A DNA stretch of 63,967 nt, filler included, from Blastocystis sp. subtype 4 (Eukaryota): NCBI RefSeq assembly GCF_000743755.1. It is 8 parts of 8 records of this genome, joined end to end, with 100 filler letters (N's around TTAATTAATTAA, not from the genome) between each part and the next. Parts side by side here need not be neighbours in the genome. Positions count along the whole stretch, not along the records: positions 16,954 to 25,295 come from NW_014569171.1; 7 more parts are not named here. One strand, 5' to 3'. The notes under the pieces were generated by a model that was given only the letters and a program-made list of their open reading frames with translations, was not told the origin of the DNA and did not search any database. Position 1 is the stretch's first letter. Each line of letters opens with the position of its first letter. Shown one piece after another: positions 18,113-25,290 of the stretch. The position numbers and the translations under genes were made by a program.

Positions 18113-18423
18113 TTATTGAGTAGACATACAATCCACTAATGGACTTGTTTCAAATGATATCATCTGTTTTACCAGATTACTGTAGATTCGAATACATTTC
18201 AATCCACTTGATAGATCCACTGGTTCTCTTCCTTTCACACCATTTGCCTGAATCTTATCAAATCCCAATATCGACTCAAATCAGGTGCTTGTTGAAATAC
18301 TAGATCATAAGCAGGACCAGAAGGATGTGCATATCCATCTTCTGTGAATGTGAGATATGAACCAAACATCTCTTCTTCTTGATCATAGTATCCTACTTCA
18401 ACAACGATAATGATAACAAACAT
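18113..18423 (-). pseudogene. decayed minor capsid (penton)-like gene, copy 2, frameshifted
   Basis: FQQAPDL/(frameshift)ILGFDKIQANGVKGREPVDLSSGLKCIRIYSNLVK aligns with copy 1. Confidence 0.5.
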
Positions 18424-18479
18424 AAATTATGTCATCTTCAACACAAATTAGTTAATGCAAATCAGTTAAAGATGATCAC

Positions 18480-19287
18480 TCCTTCTGTCGAATGATGTGA
18501 TCAAACGAATCAGCATCTCAACTGTTATCTTTAATTAATCATACTTGAACTCTGCAGTTCTCTGACACCACTAAATTCCTTATCTCCCAACTTAATCCCA
18601 TCTTCTGTTAGTGATAGAATGTCTAATTCAAATGCAATTCATCAATAATCTCCAATATCACTTTGCTTATTTGTATTAAACTGAAATCACTTCCAATGAA
18701 TACTAGAAGAGAAGGAAGATCTGACCTAACTATACTCTATCATTCCCACTTCTCATTATCAACTCATTTGATTCTCCTTTCTGACAGTCACCAATTACAA
18801 CCAAGATTCCGACACATATAGATTGAAGTTGAATCAGATCTCATTCATCATTCATTCAATCATTCATACTCTCAAAAACAACAGAATGACAACGAACGAA
18901 TGCACCTATATCTAGTTTAATTGATTTGAGAGAAAGGAGATTCTTCACTTCAAATGATTCATACAAACAGAATGAATTGTAACCGATCTGTATTTGTCTC
19001 AACAGACTACAATTCATTATCACACATTTGCTTCCTTCTTCACCGTTCTTCTCAAGTTCAAAACTCTTGTCTCCAATCTTCACGCTCTTCAGCTCATTAA
19101 GTCCATCAATCAAGAATTGAATCATATTCTTAAAACAACCATTTCCAATCTCAAGCATTTCAACTCCTTTCAAACAATTATTATCAAATACACTCAAATC
19201 ACTTCCATATCCATCTTCTAATCGTTTGATTGCACCGGATTCATCATTGCTGCCCACTTTTGACTTGAAATGAACTACTGCTTCCAT
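18480..19287 (-). CDS. leucine-rich-repeat (BspA-like) multicopy family member, possibly pseudogene
   Basis: LEIGNGCF..IDGLNELKSVKIGDKSF..LKSIKLDIGAF repeats; 3' exons and introns similar to those at 23850-25290. Confidence 0.6.
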
Positions 19288-19559
19288 TCTTTTAACATTA
19301 TCTTATCATTTCCCTGTATAGCTACCAAGGGTTGGAGGTCCTTGTTGGTGACGATTTGTTTGCTTCCAGTTTGTACGTGATATATGTCTAAACCTTCCCA
19401 TTTTGCCTTTACTACCACAGTTCGGAGTGTTGTGTGTTCCATCTGTGGATAAGTTCGACCCCTACAAGAGAATAGAATTGCTTTCTGGAGAGATACCATC
19501 GGAGAACACAAGAGTCTCTGCATTCTCTGTATCAGAGTCTACAAGAGACATCCTCGTAG

Positions 19560-20030
19560 CAACGGTGTGTCCTTCATCCAGCTTGCGTTTCTGTAGTGAG
19601 AGGAGTTTGAGAAGTTTCTGAATGGAATGATCATGGAGGTAGTGTCGAAATAATTACCTTTAGCTGTTGGAAGAAGCTGGATTACTTCAACACCTGTGTA
19701 TATCACTAATTCGATTATCAAAGATAAAAGATGACGAAGGTGTTGGACTAGCTACATCGAGTTTCTCATGATATCGATTCCTTGTACAAAGACAAGTTCT
19801 ACAAGCGAGTGGCGATTGCGGCTATTCGCTGTGCAATCCGTTTAGCCCAGAACCCTATCAATGAAGTGGACTACAAGAAACATTTCTCTCTGCTCCATTA
19901 CCACAAAGTTCATAAGAAGGGAGCTGAATACCGTGATGATGAGAATCCCGATAGCTTGAAGCCAATTTATGGCAATGAACCAGAAGAGTATCTGCAAAGC
20001 AGTAGAAGAGTTGTCTTTGTTTGCAGATGA
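19560..20030 (+). pseudogene. fragment resembling the C-terminal part of NatA auxiliary subunit NAA15, with stops and frameshift
   Basis: *FDYQDKR*RRCWTSYIEFLMI/DSLYKDKFYKRVAIAAIRCAIRLAQNP vs NAA15 pattern QFDFH..RK..RSYV..L..D.L....FY.KAA..AI..Y..L..NP. Confidence 0.5.
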
Positions 20031-20338
20031 TGTGGAGTGTTGGAGGTGTAAAAGGGAAGAAAGAAACGGGATTAACCATTGTTGACACTTATGGTGTAGT
20101 TTTCTGAGCATCATCCTCTGTACTCATTTGTGATAGATGAACGCCACACATATGTATCCTTGTCTGGAAAACGCATCCTATTCGAACTAAAGAAATCACC
20201 TCAAACGAATTGACGCTTATTTTCTGAAAGGGTCCTTACGAGTACTTGTTTCAGAGCAATGGAAATCCGGATTTAGTATATCAAGCAATCATCACAAAGA
20301 GTCAATCCAATATATAGAACAAACTAAAAGCAGGAGAA

Positions 20339-20671
20339 TTACTTCCTTATAAATGCAGAATCTGCTGCATTGACGTCATTATCGTCAGACATATATCGTT
20401 CCACTTTCATATGTAAATCATACTTTTCCCGAAGTTCCATGATTCTTGCCATCATTGGGGAAGCGTGGTGGACATCGATCGAGTGTTGGTCTTTCCAGCT
20501 ATCAATAAGAAGGACTGTTTCCGTGTCTTCCATTGGAAAAAAGTATTCATATCGAAGATTTCCGGCTTCACCACGAATATCAGTCACAATTCCACTTGAA
20601 ACCATTTCTTCTGCAAATCTCTTTGCACTTCCATTTGTACCAGTGTAATAGATATTAACTGTAATGACCAT
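20339..20671 (-). CDS. antibiotic biosynthesis monooxygenase (ABM) / putative quinol monooxygenase, bacterial type
   Basis: Intronless 110 aa; IRGEAGNLRYEYF..VLLIDSW..HHASPMM typical of ABM-family proteins. Confidence 0.85.
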   Translation of the reverse strand: MVITVNIYYTGTNGSAKRFAEEMVSSGIVTDIRGEAGNLRYEYFFPMEDTETVLLIDSWKDQHSIDVHHASPMMARIMELREKYDLHMKVERYMSDDNDVNAADSAFIRK

Positions 20672-21269
20672 AAGCTTGTATTCTGTTTATACGCCAATCC
20701 ACTAGAAAGCCCAATAACTACTCCCAATATCCTCAAAACTGTTAAGAGTAGTACAGTGGTTAACACCTAACCACTATTTATGATAATTATAATTATGTTA
20801 CATATTGTGGAGAGTTGTAACTGAATTGAAACACGGAAGTTATGCCAGTTCATATAGTCATTTCAACCGCGATTGTAATCAGTAATAAATGCTTCATTTT
20901 GATTGGTGTTTATTATCTGGTAAGAAACATACAACTAGCTAAACCTTCACATTCACGCTCAACCATATGTTGATGTAGATGTTAGAAGCGATTGAGACTA
21001 CTTCACCACGACGATTCTATTCTGATGATCCACTATGCTAAGGATTCTCTTCAGTTTCTCTGAAGTCTCTTCAATGGTTGTAAGTTTAGTGTATCTGATG
21101 ACCTAAGGCTAATTGAGATTGTTAATAACAAGCAATTCTACCACATCTATTAACGTGATGACATGGAGTTCCTCCAGTAGTGAGGTTATTAGTGTTCTGC
21201 AGAGGTGCCTCACCATATTACCTTAGGTCATTAGCATGCTGGCAACAAATAACCATACGAATTACGGTC

Positions 21270-21545
21270 TGTACAGAAGCATATAGTATTACCTTGGTTA
21301 CTTCTGATCCAACTCATTATTATTCTATTCTTTATAAAATGGCTAGAAGAATTCGTTATCGTAGATATCGACATGCCACAAGGCCCGCTTACACTGTCTC
21401 CCACAAGTACATCCGAAATGGTACATAATCTGTTCGCAGCATTAAAGGCTGGTATACTTCGTCATGCCATCCTCAACCATTCGCTCCTACTTAGTATTCT
21501 GCTACAGTATTCTTACTATTAAGCATCTTTGTGTCCAGCTACAGG
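21270..21545 (+). pseudogene. decayed CRESS-DNA virus capsid copy (ATG 21339) with its own origin hairpin (TAGTATTAC 21284-21292)
   Basis: MARRIRYRRYRHATRPAYTVSHKYIRNGT* then, via frameshifts, IKGWY..ILTIKHLCVQLQ, homologous to the N-terminus of 21870-22529; CAGAAG/CTTCTG stem around the nonamer. Confidence 0.85.
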
Positions 21546-21779
21546 TTTGTTATTTGTAAGTGTTTTCCGAATGTAGTAGATCCTACTGTTATCTCTATTG
21601 AAGGTAGTGATAGCATTGTATTATATATCCATAGCTAACAGAAGTGTTCTTAAGAATATTACCTAACTCAACCATGCTGTAGTTATAAGAGGTGTGACAA
21701 TACAGTCTGCCCAGAAGTACAAAGTATTACCTTATCTCACTTCCGTGCCAACCAATCAAATTCTTGGGATCCCAATGGG

Positions 21780-21858
21780 ATAATGACGGTTTTGGCCACT
21801 GCCCAGAAATCTATAGTATTACCCTTCACTTCTGGGCAATGACCCAAATAGTCATTAT
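21780..21858 (+). promoter_or_regulatory. rolling-circle replication origin stem-loop with nonanucleotide TAGTATTAC (21814-21822)
   Basis: Inner stem TGCCCAGAA/TTCTGGGCA and outer stem ATAATGAC/GTCATTAT around the canonical circovirus/nanovirus nonamer. Confidence 0.9.
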
Positions 21859-21869
21859 TTTTTTATGGA

Positions 21870-22529
21870 ATGGCTCACAAACTCCGCTACCGCCGCTATC
21901 GTCGATCTGGTCCCCGACCTGCCTACACGATCAACCACAAGTATATCCGCAACCTCACCTGGGATGCTCTCGGAGTCGAGGGCTGGTTTGCTGCCTCGGT
22001 TCAGCTGGTTAATAACCCGTCTATTCTTACCTCTAATTCTGCTGGCAATATACTTACTGTTAAGCATATTAAATGCCAACTCCAGAATCTGCCTACCTAC
22101 TTTGGAACCAACTCTACCACTGGGGTCTATAATTTCGGGCAACTAGAAGGTGGATGGATTTGTGTGTATGTTCCTGAGGGAACTAACCCAAACCGCCCTT
22201 TTCCTGACCTGACTACTGGTGCTTCTAGCTTGACCTTGTATGAACCTAATCAGTTTGTACTATATCATGGCACTTGGATGGAAGGTGGTTCTTACTATCA
22301 GACTAATCGTCCTGAACCTATTCTGGAGAACGGTGCTCTTGGCTATAACCGCTACTCAAATACTCCCCCTGGTAACCTCTGCCGTATTACTATCCCTCTC
22401 TCTAAAAGACTCAACCCCGGTGACTCTATCTATATGATCTATTATGCTAAAGGAGATCCCAACCTCATCTCCGGCACCTCTATTGAAGGCTGCGAAACTA
22501 TTGTATCCTACGCGTCTAAAGCTAATTAA
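21870..22529 (+). CDS. cap: CRESS-DNA virus capsid protein (single jelly-roll, Arg-rich N-terminus)
   Basis: Intronless 219 aa; N-terminal RYRRYRR arm; TVKH, VYVPEG, LYEPNQFV, KRLNPGDSIY motifs like capsids of gut-protist-associated CRESS viruses; adjacent origin. Confidence 0.85.
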   Translation: MAHKLRYRRYRRSGPRPAYTINHKYIRNLTWDALGVEGWFAASVQLVNNPSILTSNSAGNILTVKHIKCQLQNLPTYFGTNSTTGVYNFGQLEGGWICVYVPEGTNPNRPFPDLTTGASSLTLYEPNQFVLYHGTWMEGGSYYQTNRPEPILENGALGYNRYSNTPPGNLCRITIPLSKRLNPGDSIYMIYYAKGDPNLISGTSIEGCETIVSYASKAN

Positions 22530-22537
22530 CCTGATTT

Positions 22538-22545
22538 TGTTTGTT
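22538..22545 (+). terminator. host-type polyadenylation element TGTTTGTT downstream of cap
   Basis: Exact motif 8 nt after the cap stop, same as at host gene ends in this window. Confidence 0.7.
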
Positions 22546-23849
22546 TAAAAATACCTAACTCAACCATATACACGATACCATGGAGCCCCTCGGGGCGGTG
22601 TGGGGGTTACCCGGTGCTCCGTAGGAGTGCCGCAATAAGAATACCTAACCTTATCTCACTTCCGTACCATCCAATCAAATTCTTGGGATCCCAATAGGAT
22701 AATGACGGTTTTGGCCACTGTTCAGAAGTCTATAGTATTACCCTAGTAGATATTGGTATTAATATCGTACAAGTTTTAAACAGACATATTATATGACAAG
22801 GCCCATAAGAAATGCAAGATACCCTTCTTTCAACCAGATTATAGTTACTTTTGAAGAATCATCTTCACTATTGCCTGATTTACTCATAGTAATAATGAAT
22901 CTACAATAGGTTGAACCATTTCATTCACACTCAACTGTATGTTGATGTAGATGTCAGCAATTTGCATACGTTCACCAGACAATCACACTCAACAAACTAA
23001 TTGAATGCAATCACTCATACCAAAAACTCATTATACATCCCTATCAAGTATCCAACATTTGCGTTCTTCTTGATAATGAATAGAACTGCTTCTTTTGGTT
23101 CCTGTGTCTAAATCTAGTATTCCATAGAATGAATCTGTCTTATTCATAGTCTTCAGTCCAATTGAATTAGATAGGATGATAACTGGTAGTAGGAATTCAT
23201 CCTATAATGGTAGTATGCGTCTGATGTACTTAACATCACAATTATCAAGTCCTTAATTTGTTATCCAAAGGCCCATGATTCTATTGTAGCCTTTGGTATT
23301 ACTCAATACCATTTCTTTATCTGGATCAACCATCTAAAAGATGGCTTCCAACCCTAAGTAGCTGTACAGGATAGATTTCAAAACTAAACCATCATTTTCA
23401 TAACACTAACATTATTTCGAGACAAACTGAATGGTGATTAAGAACAAAGATTGTCATTCATTCTTGCAGCATTGTTACTGACTTCAGTAAGATGTACTAC
23501 TCAATAATCATTAGGAAAACCAAATGGATCATTCTCTTGGTAGAATCCATATCGATTCATCAATTCTTGTCCAATCGTTCATATTCTACTTTTACCTGCT
23601 TCAAATGTACTCTTTACTAACATCAATCAATTCAATGCCTTCTCCAATACCGATGAATCAATGATGTTTGATAAAGGATATTATACTCTTGCTCACATAA
23701 TTGCTATTTCCAATCAAACGCAATACTCATCATTCTCTCTCTCACCCACTTATCATCCTATTCATCATCACAATTCTCGTTGACACGAACGCTAGCATTA
23801 TAAATAGCATATTCATCATCGGTTACTATTCTTTAACCTTTAATAACTC

Positions 23850-25290
23850 CCAAACCCTTCTGTCGAATGAACTGATCAAGAGAATCAGCATCTCAATCAT
23901 TATCAATCAATCAATCTTACTCGAACAAGTCAATACTTTCACATTGTTGAATGCCTTACATGTCATCTGTATCCCTTGTTCAGTGAGTGATGGAATGTCT
24001 AGTTCAAATTCAATCATCTATCATCACTATCCAATATCACTTTGCCTATCCACAAGAAATTGTAGCCATCTCCTTTGAGTGAAGAAAGAGAAGGAAGATC
24101 TCATCAATCAATCATTATTGTCATTCATACTCTTCATTATCAATTCATTTGATTCAATAACATGATAGTCACCACAAAGAACCCCATATCCAAGAGTGAT
24201 AGATTGAAGTCGATTTAAATCTCATTGATCATTCATTTAATCGTTCATACTCTTAAACACTATTGAATGGCAACTACAGAATGCATCACAACCCATTTCA
24301 AGAGAGATGAGAGTACGAAGATTAGAGAGATTGAATGATTTTTCCCTCATTCCCACTTCTCCTTGAATCACAATCGATTCAACAGAACTAGATATCTCTT
24401 TCATTTGATCGATTCTAGATATCCAGAATGCTGATGGATGAAGAGATAGTAAGTGTTCAGAAGCAATCACATGACTATTCTTTGTAATGTAATATTCAAG
24501 AGAATCAGCATCTCAATCAGTATCAATCAATCAATCATACTTGAACTATCCAACTGCACATTGCAGAATATGCTTCTCAGCTTAATCCCATCTTCAGTGA
24601 GTGATGGAATGTCTAGTTCAAATTCAATATCACTCATTACTATCCAATAACATTTTGCTAATGTAGAGGAAGTTGTTACCATCTCCTTTGAATGAAGATA
24701 GAGAAGGGAGATCTAATCAATCAATCATCATCATCACTCATACTCTTCATTATCAATTCATTTGATTCAACAGTATTCCTATAACCATCTAAAGCCAACA
24801 GTCCAACATCGATAGATTGAAGTTGAGTCAGATCTCATTCATCATTCATTCAATCATTCTTACTCTCAAATACGATCCTATGACATAAGTAGAATGCATA
24901 TTGACCCAATTGAATGGATATCAGAGAACGAAGATTCTTCAATTCAAATGATTCATAACTGTAAAATGATCTGTATCCAATATGGATTTCACTCAGTTGA
25001 TCACAATTCATTATCAAACATTTACTGCCTTCTCGATTAGATTCATCAAGTTCAAAGCTCCTATTACCAATAACCAAACTCTCCAATTCATTCAATCCAT
25101 CAATCACAAATTGATTCACATTCTCAAAACAATCATTTCCAATGTCAATTCGTTTCAATGATATCAATGAATTGTTCAGTATCAATGATGATATATCAGG
25201 AGGATTGAAATGATCAGCAATAATCAGAGATTCAATACAACTAGTAACAATCAATTCACAATCATCAATCCATTTCATTCTCATATCATC
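23850..25290 (-). repeat. two tandem LRR-family gene fragments with shared exon/intron sequence (related to 18480-18880)
   Basis: Recurring blocks AAGAGAATCAGCATCTCAATC, AGTGAGTGATGGAATGTCTAGTTCAAATTCAAT, GATAGATTGAAGT; ORFs 24237-24470 and 24850-25284 end like 18856-19287 (..IVFES.ND). Confidence 0.7.

What the first reader, a model, noticed from the sequence alone, without database searches (positions are those of the whole stretch)
21729..22744. Integrated 919-nt capsid-only CRESS-DNA circle: a Rep-less genome segment or satellite of a Blastocystis ssDNA virus
Seen: TAGTATTAC at 21814 and 22733, exactly 919 nt apart, inside a 97-nt direct repeat (6 mismatches). The first copy sits in a long hairpin 11 nt upstream of one intact 219-aa ORF with an Arg-rich arm. 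No Rep motif is present in the unit or elsewhere in the window. Known: TAGTATTAC hairpins are the nick sites of rolling-circle Reps, and ~1-kb one-gene circles are how nanoviruses are organised. Inference: this is a slightly more than unit-length copy of a capsid-only circle, from either a multipartite virus or a satellite that depends on a Rep in trans. Two origins in direct repeat could let a Rep release the circle from the chromosome. The capsid motifs resemble gut-protist CRESS lineages (CRESSV1/pecovirus-like), but the family is not established here.
Basis: partly seen in the sequence, partly recalled or inferred. Interest (0 to 1): 0.92.

Follow-up and report, generated by a model that had tools for sequence, protein, structure and literature searches.

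The report
Capsid-only virus circles of Blastocystis
A chromosome of what is likely the common gut protist Blastocystis holds an intact and two decayed copies of a 0.9-kb virus DNA unit that encodes only a predicted shell protein; relatives occur as repeating one-gene units in other metagenomes and carry the host's own mRNA-end signal, so this is likely one half of an undescribed two-part virus of Blastocystis whose replication half has not been found.

Summary
Observation confirmed and extended. The ORF folds as a gemini/nanovirus-type jelly-roll capsid. The insertion is chromosomal: independent metagenome contigs cross both junctions at host depth. All 3 close non-integrated relatives with DNA in hand are Rep-less repeats of 879-890-nt units, and nearly all Logan contigs of the family are 0.9-1.0 kb. 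The family carries the Blastocystis poly(A) signal TGTTTGTT behind the gene; 46 of 47 homologues lacking a stop read through exactly as expected if polyadenylation makes their stop codon, a host hallmark. No Rep partner was found, so segment (0.6) versus satellite (0.3) is open. The capsid is nearer to kirkovirus-like and Entamoeba-virus short capsids than anything shown for pecoviruses. One run suggests a second allele with a swapped origin; another shows splicing on both strands. Rep/Cap two-circle CRESS viruses are known from bat faeces and blackflies without a host; this family, its host link and poly(A)-made viral stops were not found in print.

The parts
20998..21293 (+). Decayed copy A: capsid C-terminal part, non-coding stretch and origin
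   Evidence: nhmmer of the intact unit, unit positions 679-1014, E 8.3e-13; weak tblastn hit to residues 179-213
21284..21292 (+). Third exact nonamer TAGTATTAC, origin between decayed copies A and B; stem largely lost
   Evidence: fold z -0.05
21340..21676 (+). Decayed copy B: capsid start (to about residue 72, with a stop and a frameshift), middle of the gene deleted, capsid end and start of the non-coding stretch
   Evidence: nhmmer E 1e-16 (21268-21545) and 5.2e-5 (21579-21676); tblastn E 3e-6; alignment
21701..21733 (+). 5' arm and nonamer variant AAGTATTAC (21722-21730) ending copy B; the intact unit begins at its expected nick position (21728/21729)
   Evidence: repeat family D2; nick position from knowledge of CRESS origins (recalled)
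21729..21825 (+). Left copy of the 97-nt terminal direct repeat
21780..21858 (+). Complete origin hairpin with TAGTATTAC (21814-21822) in its loop
   Evidence: (I2)
21870..22529 (+). Intact 219-aa single jelly-roll capsid gene with Arg-rich arm
22538..22545 (+). Blastocystis polyadenylation signal TGTTTGTT
   Evidence: motif described in PMC4159000
22648..22744 (+). Right copy of the 97-nt repeat, second nonamer (22733-22741); viral sequence ends 5 nt past the expected nick
21487..21516 (-). 30-nt GT-AG intron on the minus strand, absent from a contig of run X6
   Evidence: table 4
21604..21634 (+). 31-nt GT-AG intron on the plus strand, absent from the same contig
   Evidence: table 5

Best explanation
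This is a chromosomal, slightly more than unit-length copy of a 0.9-kb capsid-only DNA unit, likely the capsid segment of an undescribed two-part single-stranded DNA virus of Blastocystis whose Rep would sit on a separate circle. Shown: one origin hairpin, one virion-sense gene, host poly(A) signal, no Rep; relatives repeat head to tail with 879-890-nt periods; the copy is in host DNA next to two decayed copies. Predicted: the protein is a gemini/nanovirus-type single jelly roll whose basic arm binds the DNA. Inferred: a Rep supplied in trans nicks the nonamer and copies the circle by rolling circle; host polymerase transcribes the gene, the host 3'-end machinery cuts 4 nt before TGTTTGTT, and in part of the family the poly(A) tail completes the stop codon. 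Inferred for the insertion: an old tandem copy (A, B; about 65-70% identical) decayed, and a younger copy was joined at the nick position of the old array's last origin, which points to Rep-driven, origin-targeted joining. The two origins in direct repeat would let a Rep release the unit, but release was not seen.
For: Fold: pLDDT 77.6, pTM 0.74; 12 of 12 PDB Foldseek matches at E under 1e-3 are gemini-, nano- or circovirus capsids; VIA Z 10.5 AYVV (rmsd 3.8, 158 aligned), 10.1 FBNSV (3.5, 136), 10.0 STNV (6.8, 155), tied. Rep-less circles: of 8 loci from the metagenome scan, 4 are this same insertion, 3 are 53-54% relatives that repeat every 887, about 890 and 879 nt (L022 holds 3.35 copies) and 1 is a distant 831-nt unit; none has a Rep; their origins fold with z -3.2 to -3.9. 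Logan-only records: 16 of 17 and 26 of 27 (four ids are in both lists) lie on contigs of 895-1000 nt; no contig among the 71 hits exceeds 2,338 nt, and 6 of 6 read-through proteins from 2.0-2.4-kb contigs run from the non-coding stretch through the origin into a capsid, as in concatemers. Host: TGTTTGTT follows the gene in the window and in L020, L021 (both copies) and L022; of 138 stored homologues that reach the conserved last strand, 91 stop there and 46 of the other 47 continue as x-x-Val-Cys, the reading of T + 4 nt + TGTTTGTT, the spacing given in PMC4159000. Integration: L017 spans 18346-25200 at 99.9%; contigs of X5 and X10 cross the left end and of X1 and X5 the right end at flank-like depth. 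Precedent for Rep and Cap on separate 1.1-kb circles with TAGTATTAC (PMC6630596). 37 Rep-like against 1 Cap-like EVE reported in Blastocystis (PMC9615429).
Against: No Rep circle was found: a Rep profile search listed 120 of 232 hits and none ended with the Blastocystis read-through signature; a search with the translated origin region gave 6 of 6 capsids; two IMG/VR scans for the circle's architecture gave 0, but IMG/VR also lacks the capsid circles, so these tests were weak. The 37:1 EVE ratio may only reflect missing capsid references. DNA of most 1.7-2.4-kb ENA contigs could not be fetched, so some could hold a Rep. Circularity rests on tandem repeats in assemblies, not on isolated circles; single-strandedness and particles are untested. 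No joint that would show excision is among the 15 shown of 24. The chromosomal capsid departs at residue 132 from a position invariant in the other 36 aligned rows, so it may not assemble. The 46 read-through proteins include near-copies (14 distinct extensions) and DNA was seen for one.
Confidence: 0.6

Rival explanations
1. Capsid-encoding satellite: the 0.9-kb circle makes its own small particle but borrows the Rep of an unrelated, complete Blastocystis virus, as satellite tobacco necrosis virus does among RNA viruses.
For: No partner segment found. Complete Rep+Cap viruses (CRESSV1/pecoviruses) are assigned to Blastocystis (PMC9615429). The origin motif AGTATTACC..TCACTTC is common among unrelated Rep+Cap circles, so many Reps might accept it. 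STNV ties for best fold match.
Against: The pecovirus nonamer is reported as TTTTATGAG (PMC9447917), unlike this origin. Capsid-only satellites replicated by an unrelated Rep are not an established ssDNA class (own knowledge), whereas cognate Rep and Cap circles are reported. The STNV fold tie is shared by gemini- and nanovirus capsids and says nothing on lifestyle.
Confidence: 0.3
2. Defective deletion products of an ordinary Rep+Cap virus, like half-size geminivirus defective DNAs.
For: Distant relatives of the capsid (25-34% identity) sit in 2.3-3.9-kb Rep+Cap genomes. Copy B shows that internal deletions of the unit occur. Most ENA contigs were not read.
Against: The same 0.88-0.92-kb one-gene layout holds across lineages only about 50% identical in protein; none of the 71 hits lies on a contig above 2,338 nt; no Rep in any relative read.
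Confidence: 0.05
3. The chromosomal copy is a host-kept antiviral element (antisense or double-stranded RNA, or a dominant-negative capsid); this concerns the integrated copy only and can hold together with the best explanation.
For: One contig of a probable RNA run spans 21156-22421 and lacks one plus-strand and one minus-strand intron; the ORF is intact in all isolates read; it departs at an otherwise invariant residue; repeated insertion at one site.
Against: One contig, strand and level unknown; isolates are nearly identical across the flanks too, so intactness may only mean youth; passages searched in PMC5608401 do not mention Dicer or Argonaute.
Confidence: 0.15
4. Assembly chimera of a free virus circle and host contig.
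For: Free-looking variants of the same species exist (X13); a repeat node makes the X5 graph ambiguous.
Against: Same junctions in L017, L018, L019, L023 and runs of several studies, at host depth; decayed copies with stops and spliced introns flank the unit.
Confidence: 0.01

Closest known systems
Pacific flying fox faeces-associated and blackfly multicomponent viruses (unclassified; PMC6630596 passages; Male et al. 2016 not read) and capsid-only molecules LfBACM-1, SACM-2 (PMC6186406 passages)
   Same: One gene per circle, about 1 kb, unidirectional, TAGTATTAC origin, Rep in trans.
   Different: Those circles are 1.13-1.16 kb, have a recovered Rep partner and no known host; here the unit is 0.88-0.92 kb, the host is indicated by integration and poly(A) signal, and the partner is missing. 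Capsid sequences were not compared.
Nanoviridae (DNA-S capsid segment, e.g. FBNSV)
   Same: About 1-kb one-gene circle, nonamer stem-loop upstream of a virion-sense capsid gene; capsid fold Z 10.1, rmsd 3.5, 136 aligned.
   Different: 7-10% sequence identity; protist rather than plant host; no movement or other segments known; no master Rep identified.
Kirkoviridae-like genomes (L147-L151) and the short capsids of Entamoeba-associated CRESS viruses (CCA2, about 180 aa; PMC7493932 passages)
   Same: Same capsid family (shared YVPEG, YEPNQ, LNxGD motifs); Entamoeba-associated CRESS DNA virus 1 capsid is second-best BFVD match, E 9e-9; gut-protist hosts.
   Different: Those are monopartite Rep+Cap genomes; this clade has an insertion of about 28 residues, forms its own branch (26 rows, SH-aLRT 100, quick tree) and has no linked Rep.
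CRESSV1 / pecoviruses and Blastocystis CRESS EVEs (PMC9615429: abstract, section 8, passages, supplement rows)
   Same: Same host genus; endogenous CRESS sequences in Blastocystis.
   Different: Pecoviruses are 2.9-kb ambisense Rep+Cap genomes with a different reported nonamer; the published EVEs are 37 Rep-like and 1 Cap-like, none in the two ST4 assemblies screened.

Membership tests
Cressdnaviricota (works like) | Single jelly-roll capsid with basic N-terminal arm | tested here: met
   (predicted structure)
Cressdnaviricota (works like) | Nonamer at the apex of a stem-loop | tested here: met
   window left origin and 3 of 3 relatives
Cressdnaviricota (works like) | Small circular genome | tested here: met
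   head-to-tail repeats of 879-890 nt in L020-L022; inferred from assemblies
Cressdnaviricota (membership) | HUH-SF3 Rep encoded by the virus | tested here: inconclusive
   absent from the unit; no partner circle found
Cressdnaviricota (membership) | Encapsidated single-stranded DNA | not testable with these tools
   needs nuclease-protected particle DNA
Multicomponent CRESS viruses (flying fox/blackfly type) | Capsid alone on a circle of about 1 kb | tested here: met
Multicomponent CRESS viruses (flying fox/blackfly type) | Cognate Rep circle sharing a common region | tested here: inconclusive
   weak negative searches; assemblies behind the loci not held
Nanoviridae | Six to eight segments, master Rep of the nanovirus clade, plant host | tested here: inconclusive
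   host signature is Blastocystis, not plant; no other segments seen; not filed here
   units of 879-919 nt without Rep
CRESSV1 / pecoviruses | About 2.9-kb ambisense Rep+Cap genome, reported nonamer TTTTATGAG | tested here: not met
CRESSV1 / pecoviruses | Capsid homologous to pecovirus capsids | not tested
   no pecovirus capsid was returned by any search

The most novel reading that the evidence does not exclude
A widespread, undescribed lineage of 0.9-kb one-gene circles is the first segmented (or capsid-satellite) ssDNA virus of a gut protist; it has adopted Blastocystis's poly(A)-made stop codons, and its Rep treats chromosomal origins as live landing pads, so that this locus is repeatedly reloaded, swapped and released, acting as a chromosomal reservoir of a capsid segment.
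Probability: 0.35. Interest if true: 0.85.

Novelty: new variant of a known kind. Interest (0 to 1): 0.7.

Why it matters
Multipartite ssDNA viruses with a known host are plant viruses, and why split genomes persist is an open question; a split genome in a culturable, single-celled gut protist would make it testable without cell-to-cell complementation in tissue. Blastocystis colonises about a billion people (PMC5608401 abstract) and its virome is barely known; this family is abundant (clusters of 50-393 sequences) yet invisible to Rep-based surveys and to Pfam. Viral genes that need the host's poly(A) step to make a stop codon give a sequence-only way to assign hosts, which can also be used to find the missing Rep circle. 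The layered insertion at an origin is a case for Rep-driven, origin-targeted integration.

Tried and rejected
Pfam: no family for the ORF; 4 of 37 aligned members hit Circo_capsid at best E 0.022. PDB by sequence: nothing. Phage and plasmid collections: no match. IMG/VR: no close capsid relative; origin-pattern scans gave chance hits in large contigs (not read further) or unrelated Rep+Cap circles without this capsid. GTDB: one weak 23-residue match, rejected as chance. Rep hunt: kirkovirus-like Rep profile gave several Reps on 1.0-1.2-kb contigs (P0441-P0444, P0446) but none with the read-through signature and no DNA to check; not claimed as partners. Origin read-through search: capsids only. 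Whole genome not held; assemblies behind the loci not held. Wide VIA search never ran. The careful tree did not finish; the quick tree is used. Earlier scan findings: none related. Excision joints: none among those shown, which contigs cannot exclude. Literature searches found no description of this family; subscription papers, among them Male et al. 2016 and recent taxonomy papers, were not searchable, and GenBank records of unnamed circular molecules were not searched.

Full report
1. Observation. The features described are present at the stated places: two TAGTATTAC 919 nt apart in a 97-nt repeat with 6 mismatches, a hairpin at 21780-21858 (z -4.56) and a 219-aa ORF at 21870-22529. The unit is 45.8% GC against 39.1% for the window. 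A profile of 117 Reps finds no Rep in the window or in L017, L020-L022, L024 and L001, while 4 of 4 control loci are found.

2. The locus is larger than reported. nhmmer with the intact unit finds three further pieces upstream: 20998-21293 (capsid end, non-coding stretch, origin), 21268-21545 (origin, leader, capsid start) and 21579-21676 (capsid end). They form an old head-to-tail array with stops, frameshifts and a deleted gene middle. It ends in a 5' origin arm and AAGTATTAC at 21722-21730 (D2). The intact unit starts at 21729, the position where CRESS Reps cut the nonamer (recalled), and ends 5 nt past the same position of the last origin. I infer two insertion events, the younger joined at an origin of the older.

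3. Host and reality of the insertion. The window has 29 TGTTTGTT motifs against 5.2 expected (30 simulations, maximum 12), candidate 30-31-nt introns in a ThiF-domain gene, and GC close to the 39.6% given for Blastocystis ST4 (ST1 54.6, ST7 45.2; PMC5608401 passages). Blastocystis, probably ST4, is therefore inferred. Four metagenome contigs carry the same insertion with host flanks; L017 covers 18346-25200 with 7 differing columns. In four runs of four studies (X1 may be the source) depth over the unit is like that of single-copy flanks, and contigs cross the left end (X5, X10) and the right end (X1, X5). A published screen found no CRESS EVE in two ST4 assemblies and only 1 Cap-like among 38 EVEs (PMC9615429, section 8 and supplement rows).

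4. The protein. Pfam and PDB sequence searches are blank. The model from 37 sequences (pLDDT 77.6) matches geminivirus, nanovirus and circovirus capsids in 12 of 12 Foldseek hits under E 1e-3 and AYVV, FBNSV and STNV at Z 10.0-10.5. In BFVD the top named hits are an unclassified ssDNA virus capsid and that of Entamoeba-associated CRESS DNA virus 1. The profile finds 291 representatives at E up to 1e-3: a 207-225-aa group and a distant 150-200-aa group, five members of which lie in Rep+Cap genomes whose Reps match named kirkoviruses and Histomonas replicases. The quick tree separates the two groups with SH-aLRT 100 (48 rows). No pecovirus capsid appeared.

5. Rep-less units are the family's normal form. 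L020, L021 and L022 (53-54% identity) repeat every 887, about 890 and 879 nt with one gene and one hairpin origin; L021 joins two different variants; distant L024 repeats every 831 nt. Logan-only records lie on 895-1000-nt contigs in 16 of 17 and 26 of 27 cases; those of the window's own cluster on 931-948 nt. The longer ENA contigs (to about 2.4 kb) behave like noisy concatemers: broken duplicates share a contig length, such as 1826, and 6 of 6 read-through proteins pass from the non-coding stretch through the origin into a capsid; their DNA was not read. Wastewater run X13 holds several diverged variants confined to 21734-22713 with no cover on flanks or decayed copies, as expected of free circles.

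6. Host signature on the free units. PMC4159000 (passages) places TGTTTGTT four bases behind the Blastocystis poly(A) site and shows that poly(A) completes stop codons; PMC12129017 (passages) finds the motif enriched in human-type subtypes but not in tortoise isolates or other stramenopiles. The motif follows the capsid gene in the window and in all three close relatives, not in L024. Of 312 stored proteins, 138 reach the conserved last strand: 91 stop, 46 continue as x-x-Val-Cys (14 distinct extensions), 1 otherwise. In L021 the DNA reads Asn codon, T, four bases, motif. I infer that these viral genes get their stop from the tail. This ties the free circles to Blastocystis independently of the insertion.

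7. Signs of activity. In run X5 four contigs meet at a shared 33-nt node (21778-21810 and its right-hand twin); the left origin there has both arms changed in step, 14 listed substitutions and 15 gap letters within 21811-21881, no other difference to 22306, flanks with 0-1 differences, all at depth 7-9. Four of these changes also occur in an X13 variant. The simplest reading is a second allele with an origin patch swapped from a free variant; an excised site plus a free circle at equal depth fits the same graph. X1, X6, X7, X14 and L017 carry the window's allele. One contig of X6 (RNA by guess) spans 21156-22421 and lacks one plus-strand and one minus-strand intron of host-typical size, pointing to transcription on both strands. 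Both observations rest on single runs.

8. Mechanism and rivals. The unit needs a Rep in trans. I favour a cognate Rep circle (0.6): such pairs with TAGTATTAC are reported from blackflies and flying-fox faeces (PMC6630596 passages; PMC6186406 passages), Rep-only EVEs dominate in Blastocystis, and the reported pecovirus nonamer differs (PMC9447917 passages). A capsid satellite of a complete helper stays at 0.3 because all partner searches were negative though weak. Deletion product 0.05, chimera 0.01.

9. Novelty. Two-circle CRESS viruses and capsid-only molecules are known, and so are CRESS EVEs in Blastocystis (also PMC3198968, PMC7493932, PMC11281440, passages). Ten library searches found no account of this capsid family, of a segmented or satellite ssDNA virus of Blastocystis, or of viral stop codons made by the host's polyadenylation; subscription papers are outside the library. 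Verdict: new variant of a known kind, interest 0.7.

Noticed in passing
window 20339-20671 (-): Intron-free 110-aa ABM-domain gene (Pfam E 2e-10) about 330 nt from the array; contigs with other flanks align to it in mouse-gut runs, so likely a recent bacterial transfer.
   Followed up: no
window 18480-19290, 22890-25290: The array sits among multi-copy, decayed leucine-rich-repeat-like genes (weak Pfam, 70-77% mutual identity, high summed depth); L019 diverges from the window only beyond 24398.
   Followed up: partly
L024 (831-nt unit): A capsid-only repeat with a 153-aa capsid of the short group and no Blastocystis motif; several short-group capsids also lie on contigs of 0.9-1.0 kb, so capsid-only circles may exist for other gut protists.
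   Followed up: partly
P0073 (cluster of the window's capsid): A second capsid variant about 93% identical, on 41 contigs up to 4,215 nt including NCBI: possibly another integrated copy.
   Followed up: no
P0442, P0444, P0441, P0443: Reps on 1.0-1.15-kb Logan contigs, one with a read-through across a nonamer-like stretch: candidate Rep-only circles of unknown host.
   Followed up: partly
L021:1-1695: Two different circle variants (79% identical) joined head to tail, with different origin loops: recombinant dimer or amplification chimera.
   Followed up: no
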